From a virus (lineage: Duplodnaviria; Caudoviricetes): a stretch of 59,478 nucleotides of DNA. The stretch spans positions 1 through 59,478 of IMG/VR virus record IMGVR_UViG_3300045935_000034, one strand, 5' to 3'. Shown one piece after another: positions 1 through 44,011 of this stretch. A model generated the notes under the pieces. The model was not told the origin of the DNA. It did no database searches and saw nothing but the letters and a program-made list of their open reading frames with translations. A program made the translations under genes and the position numbers. Every line of letters starts with the position of its first letter. The stretch's first letter is position 1.

Positions 1-59
1 TCGCCTCTTTCACGTCCGTGGTGCTCAGCCCGGCTGATCCCAGGCTGGGCGCCACGCTC

Positions 60-160
60 GTCACCCGGCCGGGGGTAGGGGCGGTCGGATCGTCAGGACT
101 GAGGCCGCAAAAGACCGCAGCGTTAGTGACGATGGCACCCTGACAAATCATTTGCGTTGC
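60..160. other. Probable cos/packaging-initiation region
   Basis: GGGGGTAGGGGCGGTCGGATC...GACCGC lies between the HNH gene (window end, if circular) and the ParB/terminase genes, the usual layout of HK97-type cos phages. Exact cut site not determinable. Confidence 0.45.
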
Positions 161-197
161 TAACGACGTTTAACGCTGGTCGACAGGAGGCCAGAAC

Positions 198-692
198 ATG
201 ACGGTGACCTCGCAGTCCTACGACGCGAAGGCTGATATTTCAGAGCTGGTCGAGCACCCGCGCAACCCGCGCCGGGGAGTCGACGCCGTGGTGTCACGCT
301 CGATCACCGCGAACGGGTTCTATGGTGCGATCATCGCGCACAGCGCGACCGGCTACGTCCTCGCGGGACACACCCGCCGTCGCGCTCTGCTCGCGCAGGG
401 CACGACCATCGCCCCGGTGCTGTGGGTCGAGTGCGACGACCGCACCGCGACGCGCATCCTGCTCGCCGACAACAAAACCGCAGAGCTGGCCGAGTGGGAT
501 AACGACATGCTCGCCGAGATGCTGCGCGACATGGGCGAGACTGAGTACCTCGGCGCGGGCTTCACGACCTACGACCTCGAAGCGCTCGCGCGTCAGCTCG
601 ACGAGTTCGAGCCGGAGCTGACCGACGAGCGCGCCGACGTCGCGAAGAAGGAGATCACGTGCCCCGCGTGCAGTCACGTGTGGACGGTCTGA
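198..692 (+). CDS. ParB/Srx N-terminal domain protein with C-terminal Zn ribbon
   Basis: HPRNPR..SITANGF..AGHTR..LADNK motifs; ends CPAC; AGGAGG RBS. Confidence 0.85.
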   Translation: MTVTSQSYDAKADISELVEHPRNPRRGVDAVVSRSITANGFYGAIIAHSATGYVLAGHTRRRALLAQGTTIAPVLWVECDDRTATRILLADNKTAELAEWDNDMLAEMLRDMGETEYLGAGFTTYDLEALARQLDEFEPELTDERADVAKKEITCPACSHVWTV

Positions 693-693
693 C

Positions 694-1401
694 ATGAACA
701 TCACCATCGCGCCGTGTTCGTACGCGACAGCGAACAAGGCAGTCCAGCGCTGGCACTATTCGCGGCTCATGCCGCGCGGATTCAAGGTGATCTACGCCGC
801 ATTCGAGGATGCCCGGTTTGTCGGCGTGTTCGTGTTCGGCGTCGGTGTCGGCAAAGGCACGCCGGTCAGCCACGTCGAAGTCCGCGACGCGCTCGAACTC
901 CAGCGCATCGCGTTCACCGACCACGCCGCGCCGATCTCTCAGCACATGGCCGCAGCCGTCCGCAGACTGCGCGCACATCACAGCCTGCGCCTGCTCGTCT
1001 CCTACGCCGACCCGTTCCACGGACACCACGGCGGGATCTACCAGGCGGCAGGCTGGACCTACGTCGGCACGTCCGGGCCGTCGAACATGTACCGCGCGCC
1101 CAACGGTGAACTGAAACACTCCCGCGTCGTCACGCCGACCGGCTATAACCGCCAGTTCGGCTCGATAAAACGCGCATGGAAGTCCGACGTCTTCACGAAA
1201 GTGATCATGCCGGGCAAGCATCTCTACATACTCGGGCTCGACCGGCCGACGCGACGCGCAGTGAGCGCGCTCGCCAGGCCGTATCCGCCCGCTCGCGTGC
1301 TAGGTCTCGACGGTGAGACGGCTGGGTTCCGCCCGGCAGGTGTCGGTTCGACTCCGGCAGCGCGCTCAGAACACGACCCGGTCGCCGCGGAAGCGTCCTA
1401 G
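694..1401 (+). CDS. mom: Mom-like (GNAT-fold) adenine hypermodification enzyme
   Basis: RWHYS, ELQR, LVSYADPFHGHHGGIYQAAGWTYVG, GKHLY and PYP motifs typical of Mu Mom homologues. Confidence 0.85.
   Translation: MNITIAPCSYATANKAVQRWHYSRLMPRGFKVIYAAFEDARFVGVFVFGVGVGKGTPVSHVEVRDALELQRIAFTDHAAPISQHMAAAVRRLRAHHSLRLLVSYADPFHGHHGGIYQAAGWTYVGTSGPSNMYRAPNGELKHSRVVTPTGYNRQFGSIKRAWKSDVFTKVIMPGKHLYILGLDRPTRRAVSALARPYPPARVLGLDGETAGFRPAGVGSTPAARSEHDPVAAEAS
1295..1366 (+). tRNA. tRNA-Gly(UCC)-like element, non-canonical, inside mom CDS
   Basis: Acceptor GCGTGCT/AGCGCGC, D-stem GTCT/AGAC with GG in loop, anticodon stem GCTGG/CCGGC with TCC at 1328-1330, T-arm GTCGG-TTCGACT-CCGGC, discriminator T1366; no encoded CCA. 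Confidence 0.85.
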
Positions 1402-1557
1402 ACTCGAACGCCCGGGTTGCGCTCAGCCAGCCGTCGACGCCCTACGTCGTGCGCTGCTGGCGCTCACAGCGCCCTGGGACGCCGGAGAGGGCCAGGGCAC
1501 ACGTGCACGCACTGGCCCTCTCCATGGCCACGCACGCGCGAGATAAGCTCCCCGCTC

Positions 1558-1737
1558 ATGAGCGACGAGACAGCCCGCACGTGCGCCAAGTGTGGCGAGC
1601 CGCTGACCGCCGACGCGCGAGCCGCAGCGATCCTGTGCGCGTCGTGCGTCGAGCGACTGGGCGCCCCGTACTGGGACACTCGCGACGTCGAGCCGGACGG
1701 CAACGGCAGCGCGCGCGTCGTCGCCAGCGCACAGTAA
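1558..1737 (+). CDS. Small Zn-ribbon protein
   Basis: CAKC...CASC in a 59-aa ORF; weak RBS. Confidence 0.45.
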   Translation: MSDETARTCAKCGEPLTADARAAAILCASCVERLGAPYWDTRDVEPDGNGSARVVASAQ

Positions 1738-1742
1738 CCAGA

Positions 1743-1775
1743 CGCCAGCGCTACGTCACTGGCCGGCACAGGGCC
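1743..1775 (+). repeat. 33-bp direct repeat copy A (core CGTCACTGGCCGGCAC)
   Basis: CGCCAGCGCTACGTCACTGGCCGGCACAGGGCC; one mismatch to 2537-2569. Confidence 0.95.
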
Positions 1776-1921
1776 GACCGGGCAGGCGCCGCGCGAGCAC
1801 CGGGCCACCCGCCCGGCTGGGAGCGCCATGGGCGGCTTCGCCCTACTGCGCTCGTGCACGCGTATCGCCTCGCGGCGACCTCGCCCGGGTCGACGTCCCA
1901 CCCGCCGCAGAACGACCGCAC

Positions 1922-1957
1922 AAAAAAAGGCTGAGCGCGTATCGCGCTCAGCCTTTT
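1922..1957. terminator. Bidirectional intrinsic terminator
   Basis: A7-GGCTGAGCGCG-TAT-CGCGCTCAGCC-T4 between convergent genes. Confidence 0.9.
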
Positions 1958-1972
1958 CGTGTCGGTCTAGCT

Positions 1973-2377
1973 TCAGGCGTTGGCCTGCGCGTCCTCGGCG
2001 TAGAAGTCGCGGATGCCCTGAAGGCGCGAAAGGCGCTCGTTCATCGTGTCGACAAGCACGGTGTCACCCCGGCGGCTCGCACGCCACCTGCGGTCACGCG
2101 TGATCTTGATCAGCTTCGCGCACTCGATGGCGTCGGCGGGCACGTCGTCGCTGTCGGTCGACAGTTTCGCGACGGGCTTCGGCGCGGCCTTCGTCGACTT
2201 GCTCGACTTCGCAGCGGGCTTCGCAGCGGGCTTGGCGGGCGTAGCTTTCGCGGCGGGCTTCGCGGCGGGCTTGCTCGGCTTCGCTGCGGCCTTCGGCGCT
2301 GCGGTCGGCGCTGACTTCGCGTCGCGGCGTGCAGCGGCCCGAGCGGCTTTTTCAGTCTCGGTCAGGCGAACAGTCAT
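1973..2377 (-). CDS. Lys/Ala/Pro-rich histone H1-like protein
   Basis: KPAAK/PAAK repeats; GGGAG RBS; own promoter and terminator. Confidence 0.75.
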   Translation of the reverse strand: MTVRLTETEKAARAAARRDAKSAPTAAPKAAAKPSKPAAKPAAKATPAKPAAKPAAKSSKSTKAAPKPVAKLSTDSDDVPADAIECAKLIKITRDRRWRASRRGDTVLVDTMNERLSRLQGIRDFYAEDAQANA

Positions 2378-2451
2378 GGCGTGCTCCCTAGCTCGGCGTC
2401 ACTCGTCGCGCCCTACGCGACTCGCTGACGCTGTCTCTCTCGTGCTTCTCC

Positions 2452-2481
2452 AAGCTACGGCCGCACTCCGGGCCCTCGCAA
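2452..2481 (-). promoter_or_regulatory. Sigma70/HrdB-like promoter for the leftward gene
   Basis: TTGCGA-18 nt-TAGCTT on the minus strand, CGGCCG just upstream of the -10. Confidence 0.55.
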
Positions 2482-2536
2482 CTCTCTATCCACAATGGAC
2501 TCGGTGTCCCCGGATACACAGGCGCAGAGTCACGAC

Positions 2537-2569
2537 CGCCAGCGCTACGTGACTGGCCGGCACAGGGCC
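2537..2569 (+). repeat. 33-bp direct repeat copy B
   Basis: CGCCAGCGCTACGTGACTGGCCGGCACAGGGCC. Confidence 0.95.
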
Positions 2570-2624
2570 TACGTTCCGCGGCGAGCCGTGAACTTCCGCT
2601 ATATATAAGAGAAACAGGTGTGAT

Positions 2625-3095
2625 ATGGCCAAGCCAGGAGTGAGGCCGATGCCGACGCCTCTTCGGCTACTCACCGGAGATCAGCACAAGAACAGGTACA
2701 ACACCGACGAGCCAGCTCCCCGCGCGAGCGGTCCAGCGCTGCCCGCAGAGATCGGCGACGAGGTCGCCGAGGTATGGCATCGCGTCGTGGGCGAGCTGAC
2801 CGCAATGGGGATCGCTTACGCTGCTGACGCCGACGCACTGCGGTGCTTCTGTGAAGCCGTCGTCGTGCACCGCAAGGCGTCGTTCTTGCTCGCGCGCAGT
2901 CCCGTGCTCGTCAAGGGCACGCTCGGCGGCATGGTCCGCAACCCCGCGATTCAGGTCCAGCGCGACGCGGCGACGACAATCCGCCAGTTCGCTGCTGAGT
3001 TCGGGCTGACGCCATCTTCGCGCAGCACCATTCACGCGCAGGAGACCGGCACGAGCGAAGCCGACAACCCCTTCACCGGAACCGGCACGGGCTGA
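2625..3095 (+). CDS. terS: Terminase small subunit (P27 family)
   Basis: PMPTPLRLLTG...NPAI...EFGLTPSSR; directly upstream of terL. Confidence 0.92.
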   Translation: MAKPGVRPMPTPLRLLTGDQHKNRYNTDEPAPRASGPALPAEIGDEVAEVWHRVVGELTAMGIAYAADADALRCFCEAVVVHRKASFLLARSPVLVKGTLGGMVRNPAIQVQRDAATTIRQFAAEFGLTPSSRSTIHAQETGTSEADNPFTGTGTG

Positions 3096-3123
3096 GTGAC
3101 GCGACAGGGCGGGAGTCACGCCC

Positions 3124-4866
3124 ATGGCACGAACCGTTAAGCCACAGGACATCCCGAAAGTCGTTCCGCCGAGCGCGGCTGAGCTGGAGCGGCTACACCT
3201 CTCGCCCGAAGTCGGCTGGTATCTCGTGTCGCGGGGTATCGCGTTGCCGGACTGCCCGCCCAAGATCAAAACCCCTGAGGGCGGGCAGCTCGCCGGGGCC
3301 CGGTTCGACGCCGCGCGTGTCGACAGAGTGCTCAGCGTGTTCGCTCGACTGCGGCACACACAGGGCAAGTGGGCGGGCGAGCCGTTCATACCCGACTCGT
3401 GGCAGGTCGCCTACATCCTCGCGCCCGTGTTCGGCTGGGTGGCGCGCAACGATGACGGTATCTGGGCTCGTGTCACACGCCGCGTGTACATCGACATCCC
3501 GCGTAAGAACGGCAAGACGTCGCTCGCCGGTGGCATCGCGACATACCTCACGACCGCCGATGGTGAGGCCGGGGCGCAGGTCTACGCCGTGGCGAGTAGC
3601 AAAGATCAGGCCCGGTTTTGCTTCGATCCGGTGAAGAAAATCGCCGAGTCGTCGCCCGCATTGACGCCCTATGTCAAGACTTTGCAGTCACGGATCATCC
3701 ATCAGCCGTCCGGATCGTACTTCGCTGTCGTCTCGCGCGTCGCAGATGTCTTGCACGGGGCCAATATCTCCGGTGCGATCATCGATGAACTGCACATCCA
3801 CAAGACTCCCGACCTGGTCGAGGCAGTCGAGACCGGTACCGGCTCGCGCACTCAGCCGCTGATTCTGATCATCACGACTGCCGACGACGGTCGTCAGGCG
3901 ACGATCTACGCGCGGCGGCGGCACTACGTCGAGCAGCTCGCGCGTGGCGCGCTCACCGACCCCACGATGTACGGGGTGGTGTGGGCGGCAGACAAGGACG
4001 CCGACGCGTTCGTCGAGTCGACCTGGCGCGCTGCTAACCCGGGGTTCGGTATCTCGCCGTCCGCCGCGTATCTCGCGAGCGCGGCGAACGAGGCCAAGAA
4101 CTCACCGGCCGATCTGGCGAAGTTCCTGCGACTGCACTTGGGTTTGCGGACCAAGCAAGAGACGCGGTATCTCGACCTTGAGGTGTGGGACCGCAACGCA
4201 TCGATGGTCAATGAACAGAAGCTCGTCGGGCGCCACTGCTATGGCGGGCTCGACCTCGCCTCGTCGAGCGACCTCTGTGCACTCGCGTACGCCTTCCCCG
4301 ACGGGCTCGGCGGGCACGATCTCTTGTGGCGAATGTGGGCCCCTGAGGGCGCGCTCAGGAAGCTCGACGAGCGCACAGCGGGAGAGTCGCGTGTGTGGGT
4401 GGCGCGTGGCCTGCTGATCGTCACGCCCGGCGACGTCACCGATTACGACTACATCCGTTCACAGATAAATCTCGACGCCGAAAAGTTCGGCATTCGCGAA
4501 ATTGCTTACGACCCGTGGAACGCGTCGCAGCTCGTGACAGACCTCGGCAACGACGGTATATCGATGGTCACGATGCGCCAGGGATTCGCGTCGATGTCCG
4601 GCCCGACAAAAGAGTTTCAGCGGCTCATGCTCGAAGGCACGTCCGAGGTACCGCGGCTTCGGCATGGCGGTAACCCCGCCGTGCGCTGGCAGGTCGACAA
4701 CCTCGCGGTTGAAATGGACGCTGCGGGCAACGTGAAGCCCAGTAAGAAAAACAGCGGAGACAAGATTGACGCGATTGTCGCCGCGATCATGGCGCTGTCC
4801 CGCGCCGTGCACTATGTCGAGCCGCGCAGGTCCGCGTACGCCGACAACGATCTGGAGGTCGTGTGA
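3124..4866 (+). CDS. terL: Terminase large subunit (cos type)
   Basis: Walker A PRKNGKT, IIDELH, GGLDLAS, YDPWN, KIDAIVA. Confidence 0.97.
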   Translation: MARTVKPQDIPKVVPPSAAELERLHLSPEVGWYLVSRGIALPDCPPKIKTPEGGQLAGARFDAARVDRVLSVFARLRHTQGKWAGEPFIPDSWQVAYILAPVFGWVARNDDGIWARVTRRVYIDIPRKNGKTSLAGGIATYLTTADGEAGAQVYAVASSKDQARFCFDPVKKIAESSPALTPYVKTLQSRIIHQPSGSYFAVVSRVADVLHGANISGAIIDELHIHKTPDLVEAVETGTGSRTQPLILIITTADDGRQATIYARRRHYVEQLARGALTDPTMYGVVWAADKDADAFVESTWRAANPGFGISPSAAYLASAANEAKNSPADLAKFLRLHLGLRTKQETRYLDLEVWDRNASMVNEQKLVGRHCYGGLDLASSSDLCALAYAFPDGLGGHDLLWRMWAPEGALRKLDERTAGESRVWVARGLLIVTPGDVTDYDYIRSQINLDAEKFGIREIAYDPWNASQLVTDLGNDGISMVTMRQGFASMSGPTKEFQRLMLEGTSEVPRLRHGGNPAVRWQVDNLAVEMDAAGNVKPSKKNSGDKIDAIVAAIMALSRAVHYVEPRRSAYADNDLEVV

Positions 4867-42093: not shown

Positions 42094-43746
42094 TTACTGC
42101 GAAGTGACAACCGGCAGTGCCCCTGGCGGGGTCAGCTGGACGCGCAGGTCGAAGCCCTTGAGTCGCGTCATGCCCGCAGGTCGTTGCACGTCGCGAGAGG
42201 GGATGATGGTGACTGTCATCAGTGACTGCACGATGGCGCGCCTGTATTCAATGTCGGTGATCGTGTCGTATGCAGCGACCGGGTCAGCAGCGTCAGCAAC
42301 GCCGAGCAATGGTGATGTGGATGCAACGGTGCCGAGTTCGTAGTCCACCGCAGCGAGCTTGACTTTCAGTGGCTCGATTGCCCTCAGCATCTCCCTGAGT
42401 GCGATCAGCTCCTTGGCATACGCGTCGGCGCACTCGTCGATCAGTACACGTAGCTCAGTCGCACGTCGTCTCAGCCCGGCCACATCGACTTCTGGGTGAC
42501 TCTGTACCAGCTTCGCGCCCTGTTCGCGCAGAATCCGGCGCACTGCCTCGTTTACTACCCTGTCAGCGATATGCGTAGCTATGGACATGTGCGCACCCGC
42601 GCGGCATCGATACGTTCGATACGCGCCCTTGGGCGCCATGGACTTGCCTGTCATCATCAGGGCACCGCAGTTGCCGCAACGGTAGACACCGTTTCCGAGC
42701 TGTGGATTGTTGCCAGCTCTCGCGGTGATCCGCTCTGGGTCATTGAGCTTGGCCCGCAGTGCTCGCCACGTGTCTTCACTGATAATGGCGGGCCACTGTG
42801 CGGTGGTGAGTACTCGGTCAGACCCATCATTGACGAGGACGATTCCGGCATTGCGAGGGTTCAGCATGATGTTCCTGACAGACAGTCGGTGCCAGTGCCC
42901 GCGAATAATCGGTATGCCCCGGTCTGCGAACTCCCATACGACTTCGCGCGGCGACTGTATGTCACGTCCAGATGGGGGCGGTGCGTACATCCGTTCGACA
43001 GCCTCATAGATCAGCGCGGCCTCGTCGGGGCGTTCGTTGCTTGGCGTCTTGGCGACAAGCTCGGCGAGCATTGGCCTCGACCATGTGCACGGCGGGCAAT
43101 GCTCGTCCCATTTCGCAACGAGGCTTCGCAGGGACCTTCCGCTGAGCAGGTGCTCAGCGCCGTCCCTGATCCATCTTGCTTCGCGTTCACGTATCCGCAT
43201 TCCGTGGCGCTCATACCCGAACGCGCGTTGCCCTCCCATGAACTCGCCGGTCTTGCGTTTGCCGACCTTCGAGTCGATAACGCGCTCGGCGTCGCGCTCA
43301 GCCTCCGCAGCATCCCATGCTGCCAGCGTCCGGGCGACCGCGCGGCCATCTGCCGTGTTCAGGTTGAAACTGGGGCTCCGAATGAACCGGTACTCGATTG
43401 CCGCAGTCTCGGCGAGTTCAATCTGGTCCTCATGCTCACGCGGGCGGCGAGTGAGTCGCGCGCTGGTGTAGGCATAGATGATGCTGCCCGGGTCGCTGCG
43501 CGCGTCGCGCAAGAGGCGGTCATACTGCGGTCGCTTCTTTTTCGAGTGCTTCGATGCGCCGATGTCGTTGTCGCGATATGAGTCGACGATCACCAGCGTG
43601 GGGTCCTTTTCTATTACCGAGATCAGGCCGTTGTGCTGGAGTTCCACGCCGAGCTCGCGCCCCTCCCTGTCTCTGCTGATCCGCTCATACAAGCGAACGT
43701 GACGTGGCGTTGCGATCATTAACGGGTGCGGTGCGGCAGTGGTCAT
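42094..43746 (-). CDS. int: Large serine recombinase (phiRv1-type integrase); alternative start GTG 43758
   Basis: YERISRD..GV..Q, DNDIGAS..RPQY, RLTRRP, AFGY, NPRNAG, WPAII, CGNCG..YRC. Confidence 0.95.
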   Translation of the reverse strand: MTTAAPHPLMIATPRHVRLYERISRDREGRELGVELQHNGLISVIEKDPTLVIVDSYRDNDIGASKHSKKKRPQYDRLLRDARSDPGSIIYAYTSARLTRRPREHEDQIELAETAAIEYRFIRSPSFNLNTADGRAVARTLAAWDAAEAERDAERVIDSKVGKRKTGEFMGGQRAFGYERHGMRIREREARWIRDGAEHLLSGRSLRSLVAKWDEHCPPCTWSRPMLAELVAKTPSNERPDEAALIYEAVERMYAPPPSGRDIQSPREVVWEFADRGIPIIRGHWHRLSVRNIMLNPRNAGIVLVNDGSDRVLTTAQWPAIISEDTWRALRAKLNDPERITARAGNNPQLGNGVYRCGNCGALMMTGKSMAPKGAYRTYRCRAGAHMSIATHIADRVVNEAVRRILREQGAKLVQSHPEVDVAGLRRRATELRVLIDECADAYAKELIALREMLRAIEPLKVKLAAVDYELGTVASTSPLLGVADAADPVAAYDTITDIEYRRAIVQSLMTVTIIPSRDVQRPAGMTRLKGFDLRVQLTPPGALPVVTSQ

Positions 43747-44011
43747 GGCGCGAGTCACTTTCAGTCATACGTCAGACGCGAGGCGTGGTTGCCTGGCGGT
43801 TGACGCATACTGTAGTTAATGAACAACGTCGAGACAAACTTGCACAACGACACGATGCTGTGCGCTTAGACTGACACGACGTCGTGGACTGATGTTTGTG
43901 CAGCTCAGCGCGCATATGCGCTGAATCGCGCAGGGCGTTACCTGGCGAGTAACGTGAGCCCGGCTGTGAGCGTCACAGCAGCCTGACCAGCCCCGATAGG
44001 TAGTTGCGCAC

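What the first reader, a model, noticed from the sequence alone, without database searches (positions are those of the whole stretch)
1279..1401. Maturing the embedded tRNA would remove the mom stop codon
Seen: the stop codon (1399-1401) lies 3' of the tRNA. Established: RNase P cuts tRNA 5' ends, non-stop mRNAs are rescued by tmRNA tagging, and Mu mom is toxic and tightly controlled. Inference: a transcript yields either full-length enzyme or tRNA plus tagged enzyme, which could limit or time modification.
Basis: inference. Interest (0 to 1): 0.7.

Follow-up and report, generated by a model that had tools for sequence, protein, structure and literature searches.

The report
Glycine tRNA inside Mom gene's tail
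A phage gene for the DNA-disguising enzyme Mom runs straight through a glycine-tRNA gene before reaching its stop codon, so cutting out the tRNA, which is probably the enzyme's own glycine carrier, must cut the stop codon off the enzyme's message; most related phages share this layout, but nobody has tested its effect.

Summary
The mom ORF (694-1401) reads through a tRNA-Gly(UCC) (1295-1366), and its TAG (1399-1401) lies 32 nt past the tRNA.

The layout is a family trait, not chance. I examined 80 related IMG/VR mom loci, the window and phage BarretLemon. In 77 of these 82 a tRNA-Gly-like element follows mom on the same strand. In 74 of the 77 the stop lies inside or beyond the element. All three reading frames are used.

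Mu Mom takes glycine from Gly-tRNAGly (Silva et al. 2026, PMC13219725). The elements keep the glycyl-tRNA synthetase (GlyRS) identity set but often lose features needed for decoding. They are most likely private glycine carriers for Mom.

Stop-codon loss on RNase P cleavage follows logically from this layout. Regulation through tmRNA tagging is untested. Some lineages do without the overlap: the stop lies before the tRNA, or the tRNA is on the opposite strand or upstream, or there is none (Mu).

The tRNA-encoded tail is predicted disordered, and Mu Mom ends one residue after the same PYP motif.

This scan has noted mom-embedded tRNA-Gly elements before, on other DNA.

The parts
198..692 (+). 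Upstream ORF (164 aa). Its TGA ends 1 nt before the mom ATG, so the two are probably in one operon.
   Evidence: Listed. No Pfam hit at E<=0.01. In cultured relatives the gene before mom, directly or with one small gene between, is annotated ParB-like; that label was not tested for this window.
694..1401 (+). mom ORF, 235 aa including the read-through tail; the stop codon is included in the range.
   Evidence: Pfam Mom PF25680 over residues 3-198, 125.6 bits. R71 and S82 align with Mu Mom R111 and S124.
1279..1287 (+). PYP motif, the last conserved motif of the Mom domain.
   Evidence: P198 is invariant in A1 and A6. The Pfam profile ends here. Mu Mom ends one residue after the same motif.
1288..1294 (+). 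7-nt linker. The expected RNase P cut lies between 1294 and 1295.
   Evidence: The cleavage itself is inferred from the established action of RNase P, not observed.
1295..1366 (+). tRNA-Gly(UCC), anticodon at 1328-1330, discriminator U at 1366. CCA is not encoded (U, then CAG).
   Evidence: R1 gives 78.6 bits and R2 72.7 bits. Covariation across the family is shown.
1295..1398 (+). Codons 201-235 of mom: the tRNA read as protein, plus 10 further codons.
   Evidence: AlphaFold2 pLDDT is below 50 for residues 202-235, against 83-97 for most of residues 1-200. In relatives the tail is read in three different frames.
1399..1401 (+). TAG stop of mom, 32 nt beyond the tRNA.
1484..1523 (+). 12-bp GC-rich hairpin with a 16-nt loop and no U tract; a possible transcript end.
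   Evidence: Present in both the MFE and the centroid fold. Not called by the terminator scan. Function not tested.

Best explanation
The embedded tRNA-Gly is most likely Mom's own glycine carrier. It is made from the same transcript as the enzyme, and Mom would use it once charged (Mu Mom moves glycine from Gly-tRNAGly onto N6 of adenine in DNA). The tRNA starts 7 nt after the last motif of the Mom domain, and the first in-frame stop lies beyond it. Releasing the tRNA (RNase P at 1294/1295, then 3' trimming and CCA addition) therefore cuts the stop codon off the mom message. One transcript can either be translated to TAG 1399, giving Mom with a roughly 35-residue disordered tail that is just the tRNA read as protein, or be cut into a tRNA plus a stop-less mom message left to ribosome rescue. 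I read the overlap mainly as a consequence of tight co-expression of enzyme and co-substrate. Loss of the stop is a real structural consequence whose size and regulatory use are unknown. Shown here: the anatomy, its conservation, selection at the RNA level, and retention of the GlyRS identity set. Taken from the literature: the Gly-tRNAGly dependence of Mu Mom. Inferred: co-transcription, RNase P cleavage, charging, use by this Mom, and the fate of the cut message.
For: (1) Anatomy.

(2) Conservation. Covariance models R1 and R2 find one tRNA-Gly-like element beside mom in 77 of the 80 IMG/VR loci kept (55, 17 more, 5 more). L020, L036 and L081 have none. The more distant L006 (26% identity, fetched separately) also has none and is not counted among the 80. 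ARAGORN alone sees only 14 tRNAs in 81 loci: 13 are Gly and one is unassigned.

(3) It is an RNA under structural selection. On A4, 19 of 21 pairs show changes on both sides and 96.8% of cells are paired, against 65% in shuffles and 33-43% when the partner is slid. On the MAFFT alignment A2, 16 of 21 pairs change on both sides.

(4) Identity set in 65 unique elements: G1, C2, G71, C72 and U73 in 65 of 65; G3:C70 in 61, with C3:G70 in the other 4; all 61 elements with a 7-nt anticodon loop read NCC. Decoding features decay: U33 in only 29 of 61, A8 instead of U8 in 57 of 65, many non-canonical T-loops, and forms of 66-68 nt with little or no D-arm. Position 34 is U, A or C and never G.

(5) Silva et al. 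2026 (PMC13219725; abstract and sections 10 and 14 read): Mom uses Gly-tRNAGly, accepts all three E. coli isoacceptors and rejects Gly-tRNAAla.

(6) It is the only tRNA in 59 kb. GGA is the rarest Gly codon in 12 ORFs (10%).

(7) The tail is not part of the fold: pLDDT is below 50 for residues 202-235, and Mu Mom ends one residue after PYP.

(8) Stop position: after the element in 63 loci, inside it in 11 and before it in 3, out of 77.

(9) Cultured phages show the same link. It is overlapping and unannotated in Arthrobacter phages Martha, BarretLemon and Sicarius2, inside the CDS in Pseudanabaena phage Pan3, and adjacent and annotated as tRNA-Gly in Salinibacter B2_17 and Microbacterium Appa.
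Against: There are no expression, processing or charging data for any of these elements; no RNA run holds the window.

The Mom-tRNA biochemistry comes from Mu, which has no such element and uses host tRNAs.

The window's own tRNA is nearly canonical (U33, TTCGA T-loop, GG in the D-loop), so an ordinary decoding role is not excluded here.

The 80 loci are the nearest of at least 591 relatives. They include 9 identical repeats (68 unique elements) and are phylogenetically related, so the counts overstate the number of independent cases.

R1 and R2 were built from this family, so A4 leans towards the model's structure.

If the overlap were only a by-product, one would not obviously expect two results. 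The mom frame is open across the element in 57 of 68 unique elements, against 61 of 135 for the other two frames. In the mom frame the stop also follows sooner (median 22 nt against 67 nt). Both hint at selection on read-through translation, though neither comparison is corrected for phylogeny.
Confidence: 0.6

Rival explanations
1. One reading: the overlap is a selected switch. RNase P cutting turns mom mRNA into a non-stop message, tmRNA tags the protein for degradation, and this limits or times a toxic enzyme.
For: The stop is inside or beyond the element in 74 of 77 loci. The element starts 0-11 nt after PYP in 66 of the 76 of those loci where the motif could be placed. The overlap persists in all three frames (33, 20 and 15 of 68 unique elements), and the frames are interleaved on the quick Mom tree. 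In Dehalococcoides islands a tRNA-Gly-like locus sits within the first 150 bp of the mom homologue (McMurdie et al. 2011, PMC3146451, passages read). There too, excision and translation of one transcript would be mutually exclusive.
Against: Nothing shows cleavage, tagging or any effect on Mom level. Several lineages carry a stop before the tRNA, or the tRNA on the other strand or upstream, or no tRNA at all. With a linker of 0-11 nt a stop placed before the tRNA would end up at the very 3' end of the cut message and might not work anyway, so the absence of such stops need not be selected. The excess of open mom frames across the element and the early stops after it suggest that selection acts on translation of uncut messages.
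Confidence: 0.2
2. The element is not cut out of translated mom messages. Either the tRNA comes from a separate start inside mom, or it stays attached as a tRNA-like 3' structure that stabilises the message or is charged in cis.
For: Nothing direct. The stop lies close behind the element (median 22 nt), and a strong hairpin follows at 1484-1523, which is compatible with a defined 3' end. In 46 of 65 unique elements the two bases after position 74 are CA, and position 74 is C in 58 of 65, so most encode CCA or something close to it.
Against: No sigma-70-like promoter in 1-3200; this is weak evidence, because actinobacterial promoters differ. The acceptor and T arms are intact and covary, which is what RNase P recognises (established knowledge). 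Mom needs the terminal adenosine of the tRNA (PMC13219725, section 10), so at least 3' processing must occur, and in 63 of 77 loci that alone removes the stop.
Confidence: 0.1
3. An ordinary phage tRNA for GGA/GGG decoding that happens to overlap a stop-poor, GC-rich ORF end.
For: The window's tRNA is nearly canonical. A 37-codon stop-free run has P about 0.39 here.
Against: The same position beside mom recurs in 77 of 80 loci. All detected ones are Gly-type. Many have lost U33, the D-arm or a canonical T-loop. It is the only tRNA in the genome, and GGA is the rarest Gly codon.
Confidence: 0.05
4. A remnant or attachment site from integration into a host tRNA-Gly gene.
For: Phages often integrate into tRNA genes (established knowledge).
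Against: It is a whole tRNA, not a 3' half. The only recombinase found among 10 large ORFs scanned is a large serine recombinase at 42097-43758, 40 kb away. The element travels with mom, not with an integrase, across diverged lineages.
Confidence: 0.03

Closest known systems
Phage Mu Mom with host Gly-tRNAGly (Silva et al., Nat Commun 2026, PMC13219725)
   Same: Same enzyme family (PF25680). The window's R71 and S82 align with Mu's essential R111 and S124. The co-substrate is glycyl-tRNAGly.
   Different: Mu carries no tRNA-like element beside mom, and its Mom ends one residue after PYP. Here the tRNA gene lies inside the ORF's tail. The main text of the paper does not mention phage-encoded or embedded tRNAs (term counts of 0). 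Its supplements could not be seen.
tRNA-Gly-like 'pseudo-tRNA' embedded in the mom homologue of Dehalococcoides ssrA genomic islands (McMurdie et al., BMC Genomics 2011, PMC3146451)
   Same: A tRNA-Gly-like locus inside a mom homologue, next to a ParB-domain gene and a serine recombinase (passages read).
   Different: There it lies within the first 150 bp of the gene, not at the 3' end. No function was proposed, and no consequence for the stop codon arises.
Non-proteinogenic tRNA-Gly species that feed FemXAB cell-wall synthesis in staphylococci (recalled, not checked in a call)
   Same: Glycine tRNAs kept for a GNAT-fold aminoacyl transferase rather than for the ribosome, with altered features relevant to translation.
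   Different: Those are free-standing host genes. They are not embedded in the enzyme's ORF and not phage-borne.
tRNA punctuation of mitochondrial transcripts, and MALAT1-mascRNA (recalled, not checked in a call)
   Same: Excision of a tRNA or tRNA-like structure by RNase P sets the 3' end of the upstream RNA. Mitochondrial mRNAs can be left without a complete stop codon.
   Different: In those cases the coding region ends before the tRNA. Here the ORF continues through the tRNA to a stop beyond it, in a phage, and the tRNA is the enzyme's presumed co-substrate.
Trans-translation (tmRNA/SsrA) on non-stop mRNAs (established knowledge, recalled)
   Same: A mom message cut at 1294 would be a textbook non-stop substrate.
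   Different: No evidence here that tagging happens or is used for control.

Membership tests
Mom family (Pfam PF25680) | Profile match above the curated cut-off. | tested here: met
   125.6 bits against a cut-off of 27.1; residues 3-198 on profile positions 2-201 of 202.
Mom family (Pfam PF25680) | Residues essential in Mu Mom (R111 and S124, per the abstract of PMC13219725). | tested here: met
   Window R71 aligns with Mu R111 in an invariant column of A6. Window S82 aligns with Mu S124, and one of the 7 rows has T there.
Mom family (Pfam PF25680) | Glycyl transfer from Gly-tRNAGly to adenine in dsDNA. | not testable with these tools
   Biochemistry is known only for Mu Mom and two metagenomic homologues (PMC13219725).
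Bacterial tRNA-Gly | Cloverleaf with 7/4/5/5 stems and an NCC anticodon. | tested here: met
   ARAGORN Gly(tcc). Rfam tRNA 35.6 bits against 29. Compensatory changes across the family.
Bacterial tRNA-Gly | GlyRS identity set G1:C72, C2:G71, G3:C70, U73, C35, C36 (the set is recalled, and is also listed in note e1-6270535). | tested here: met
   All present in the window's tRNA (alignment). Across 65 unique family members they are invariant or compensated.
Bacterial tRNA-Gly | Universal elongator features: U8, U33 and a T-loop of TTCRA type. | tested here: inconclusive
   The window has U33 and a TTCGA loop but A8 instead of U8. In the family A8 occurs in 57 of 65 and U33 in only 29 of 61, and many T-loops are non-canonical.
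Bacterial tRNA-Gly | Charging with glycine, and a mature CCA end. | not testable with these tools
   CCA is not encoded in the window. Position 74 is C in 58 of 65 unique relatives, and the next two bases are CA in 46 of 65.
Non-stop mRNA / tmRNA substrate | An mRNA 3' end upstream of any in-frame stop. | not testable with these tools
   It follows from the anatomy if RNase P cuts at 1294/1295. No RNA data are available.
RNase P substrate | Stacked acceptor and T arms with a 5' leader. | tested here: met
   The acceptor and T stems are 98.7% and 97.6% paired across 66 distinct rows. Cleavage itself is not testable here.

The most novel reading that the evidence does not exclude
The overlap is a selected partition device. 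Each mom transcript becomes either enzyme (a ribosome reads through and unfolds the tRNA) or co-substrate (RNase P cuts first). This sets the enzyme-to-carrier ratio and caps a toxic activity, and the cut, stop-less message is resolved by ribosome rescue. The same mutual exclusion would hold for the lineages with the tRNA-like element in the first codons of mom, so it would be a general rule for this enzyme family.
Probability: 0.2. Interest if true: 0.8.

Novelty: new variant of a known kind. Interest (0 to 1): 0.55.

Why it matters
Mom was shown only recently to use charged tRNA-Gly to modify DNA. Many phages appear to carry that tRNA inside the mom gene itself, often in a form that keeps only what GlyRS needs. 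That points to private, non-ribosomal glycine carriers, and to an unusual bacterial case where one RNA stretch is both coding sequence and a structured RNA product.

The stop-codon consequence gives a concrete experiment on how a phage balances an enzyme against its RNA co-substrate. It can be done in cultured Arthrobacter phages.

It also matters for annotation. The element is unannotated in Arthrobacter phages Martha, BarretLemon and Sicarius2. ARAGORN missed it in most loci (14 tRNAs in 81 loci), and among these three phages it called only the Sicarius2 copy.

Tried and rejected
Near-identical DNA relatives in cultured phages: blastn of 600-1800 found only 5 short (5-7%) matches inside mom.

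The search for related loci with the single protein gave one distant locus (L006, 26% identity). No element was found there.

Promoter and terminator scan of 1-3200: 0 and 0 sites. The consensus is E. coli-type, so this says little for an actinobacterial host.

Public reads: one DNA run, possibly the source sample, and no RNA holder listed.

RNA fold of 1270-1560: z-score -0.71, and the MFE fold does not reproduce the cloverleaf. Thermodynamic folding of the 291-nt stretch is uninformative here; the covariance models and covariation carry the structural claim.

attP idea: the only recombinase found among 10 large ORFs is a serine recombinase 40 kb away.

Codon supplementation: GGA is the rarest Gly codon.

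Tree: the careful treekit search did not finish in 288 s. The quick IQ-TREE tree was used for a qualitative statement only. 24 of its 72 inner branches are below 80% support, and the window sits on a long branch.

Literature: searches found no paper that describes a tRNA embedded at the 3' end of mom or its effect on the stop codon. The only embedded-tRNA report found is McMurdie 2011, for the 5' end. Supplements of all papers were closed, and those of PMC13219725 (metagenome mining of more than 8000 homologues) might bear on this.

Full report
**What is in the window**

The window is a complete 59,478-bp IMG/VR virus record of about 65% G+C. ORF 694-1401 (+, 235 aa) is a Mom-family protein: Pfam PF25680 covers residues 3-198 at 125.6 bits. 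R71 and S82 align with R111 and S124 of Mu Mom, the two residues that Silva et al. report as essential (PMC13219725, abstract).

The Pfam match ends at the PYP motif (nt 1279-1287). Seven bases later a tRNA-Gly(UCC) begins. ARAGORN places it at 1293-1367 and Rfam at 1295-1366 with 35.6 bits. The anticodon is at 1328-1330. It is the only tRNA in the record. The mom frame stays open through the tRNA and ends at TAG 1399-1401.

Taken alone it would not be remarkable. At this composition a 37-codon run without a stop has a chance of about 0.39.

**Relatives**

Protein relatives at 40-76% identity share a tail after PYP. That tail turned out to be the D-arm and T-arm of a tRNA read as protein.

I fetched the 80 nearest viral loci out of at least 591. 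ARAGORN sees a tRNA in only 14 of 81 loci. Thirteen are Gly and one is unassigned. Twelve sit at the mom 3' end, one is upstream and one is on the other strand.

I built a covariance model from those 14 and the window (R1), and a second from its hits (R2). Together they find one element beside mom in 77 of the 80 loci: 55, 17 more and 5 more. L020, L036 and L081 have none.

The fold is supported by covariation. On A4, 19 of 21 pairs change on both sides and 96.8% of cells are paired, against 65% in shuffles and 33-43% with slid partners. On the MAFFT alignment A2, 16 of 21 pairs change on both sides. Both alignments come from sequences picked as tRNA-like, so the paired percentages lean that way. 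The compensatory changes lean less.

**What kind of tRNA**

Among 65 unique elements:
- G1, C2, G71, C72 and U73 are invariant.
- G3:C70 occurs in 61, and the other 4 have the compensated C3:G70.
- All 61 elements with a 7-nt anticodon loop read NCC (36 UCC, 19 ACC, 6 CCC, no GCC).

By recalled knowledge this is the bacterial GlyRS identity set.

Features needed on the ribosome are not kept:
- U33 occurs in only 29 of 61.
- Position 8 is A in 57 of 65.
- Many T-loops are non-canonical, and a large subgroup carries an extra bulged A in the T stem.
- Fifteen elements are 66-68 nt long, with little or no D-arm.

Silva et al. showed that Mu Mom transfers glycine from Gly-tRNAGly to N6 of adenine in dsDNA. 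It accepts all three E. coli isoacceptors and rejects Gly-tRNAAla (abstract and sections 10 and 14 read). Put together, the simplest reading is that these elements are private glycine carriers for Mom.

The main text of that paper does not mention phage-encoded or embedded tRNAs, and neither does the 2023 preprint. McMurdie et al. 2011 did note a tRNA-Gly-like locus within the first 150 bp of the mom homologue of Dehalococcoides islands, without proposing a function. I was led to that paper by earlier notes of this scan.

**The stop codon**

Seventy-seven loci have a same-strand element downstream of the Mom domain: 75 IMG/VR loci, the window and BarretLemon. In these the mom stop lies beyond the element in 63, inside it in 11 and before it in 3. 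The element starts 0-11 nt after PYP in 66 of the 76 where the motif could be placed.

All three phases occur (33, 20 and 15 of 68 unique elements). They are interleaved on a quick Mom tree. So the peptide is not what is conserved.

A cut at the tRNA 5' end would remove the stop in 74 of 77 loci. For the 63 loci with the stop beyond the element, 3' maturation alone would remove it as well.

**Is the tail a real part of the protein?**

AlphaFold2 with alignment A1 gives pLDDT 83-97 for most of residues 1-200 and below 50 for residues 202-235. Mu Mom ends one residue after PYP. Relatives without the overlap end 4-18 residues after the motif. The tail looks like a by-product of reading through the tRNA.

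**Is the overlap selected?**

Two results hint that read-through translation matters:
- The mom frame has no stop inside the element in 57 of 68 unique elements, against 61 of 135 for the other two frames (Fisher p 8e-8).
- Where the frame is open, the stop follows after a median of 22 nt, against 67 nt in the other frames (p 1.4e-5).

Neither test corrects for relatedness, and downstream genes may lengthen the other frames. The result fits a picture in which uncut messages are translated to a proper stop.

Against a required role for stop loss, several lineages lack the overlap:
- Three loci and Salinibacter phage B2_17 have the stop before the tRNA.
- Microbacterium phage Appa (and L017) has the tRNA on the other strand.
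- L043 has it upstream.
- Mu, phiEf11, SP-031, P12002L and AS-sw have none.

With linkers this short, a stop placed before the tRNA would sit at the very end of the cut message and might not function anyway. Its absence therefore need not be selected.

**Other readings**

- Codon supplementation is unlikely. GGA is the rarest Gly codon, and many family members cannot plausibly decode.
- An attachment-site origin is unlikely. The only recombinase found among 10 large ORFs is a serine recombinase 40 kb away.
- A separate promoter for the tRNA cannot be excluded. The scan found none, but it uses an E. coli consensus.
- No RNA data exist for this sequence.

**Verdict**

Loss of the stop on maturation is a sound structural inference that holds for most relatives. 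Its use as a control device is untested and is not needed by all lineages. The primary reason for the tRNA is most likely that it is Mom's co-substrate.

This scan has reported mom-embedded tRNA-Gly elements before on other genomes, and the same reader noted the tRNA on this window (e1-6270535).

Noticed in passing
L090 1801-1872 (Arthrobacter phage Martha), L087 1812-1883 (BarretLemon), L091 1798-1869 (Sicarius2): Cultured Arthrobacter phages carry the tRNA-Gly-like element overlapping the end of the annotated mom / acetyltransferase gene, with no tRNA feature in the records. ARAGORN calls only the Sicarius2 copy.
   Followed up: partly
L094 1645-1711 (Pseudanabaena phage Pan3); L092 1791-1864 (Salinibacter phage B2_17): The Mom-tRNA-Gly link reaches beyond actinophages. 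In a cyanophage a 67-nt form with little or no D-arm lies inside the CDS. In a Salinibacter phage a tRNA-Gly lies 33 nt after the stop.
   Followed up: partly
Family alignment A4, e.g. L013 1154-1227, L040 3002-3068: There are three structural grades: a canonical 73-nt form, a 74-nt form with a bulged A in the T stem and a TGCAACT-type loop, and 66-68-nt forms with little or no D-arm. Closely related Mom proteins (L013/L033 against L035/L053/L040) carry different grades that differ by 9 nt in all, so the downstream reading frame is kept.
   Followed up: partly
L035 1312-1379 and 2023-2090: Two identical-scoring copies of the element lie 711 nt apart on one contig. This is either a duplicated mom or an assembly repeat.
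   Followed up: no
window 1484-1523: A 12-bp perfect GC-rich hairpin lies 83 nt after the mom stop, without a U tract. It might end the mom-tRNA transcript.
   Followed up: no
window 1558-1737: A small ORF (59 aa) with a weak double-zinc-ribbon match (E 0.0029, below the Pfam cut-off) lies between mom and a bidirectional-looking terminator palindrome at 1914-1967 (self-match).
   Followed up: no
window 42097-43758 (-): Large serine recombinase (Resolvase and Recombinase domains), so the phage is probably temperate.
   Followed up: no
L017 (IMG/VR contig of 38,684 bp) and L089 (Microbacterium phage Appa, 38,684 bp): Same length and same arrangement (tRNA-Gly(ccc) on the minus strand just after mom). 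The viral contig probably is, or closely matches, phage Appa.
   Followed up: no
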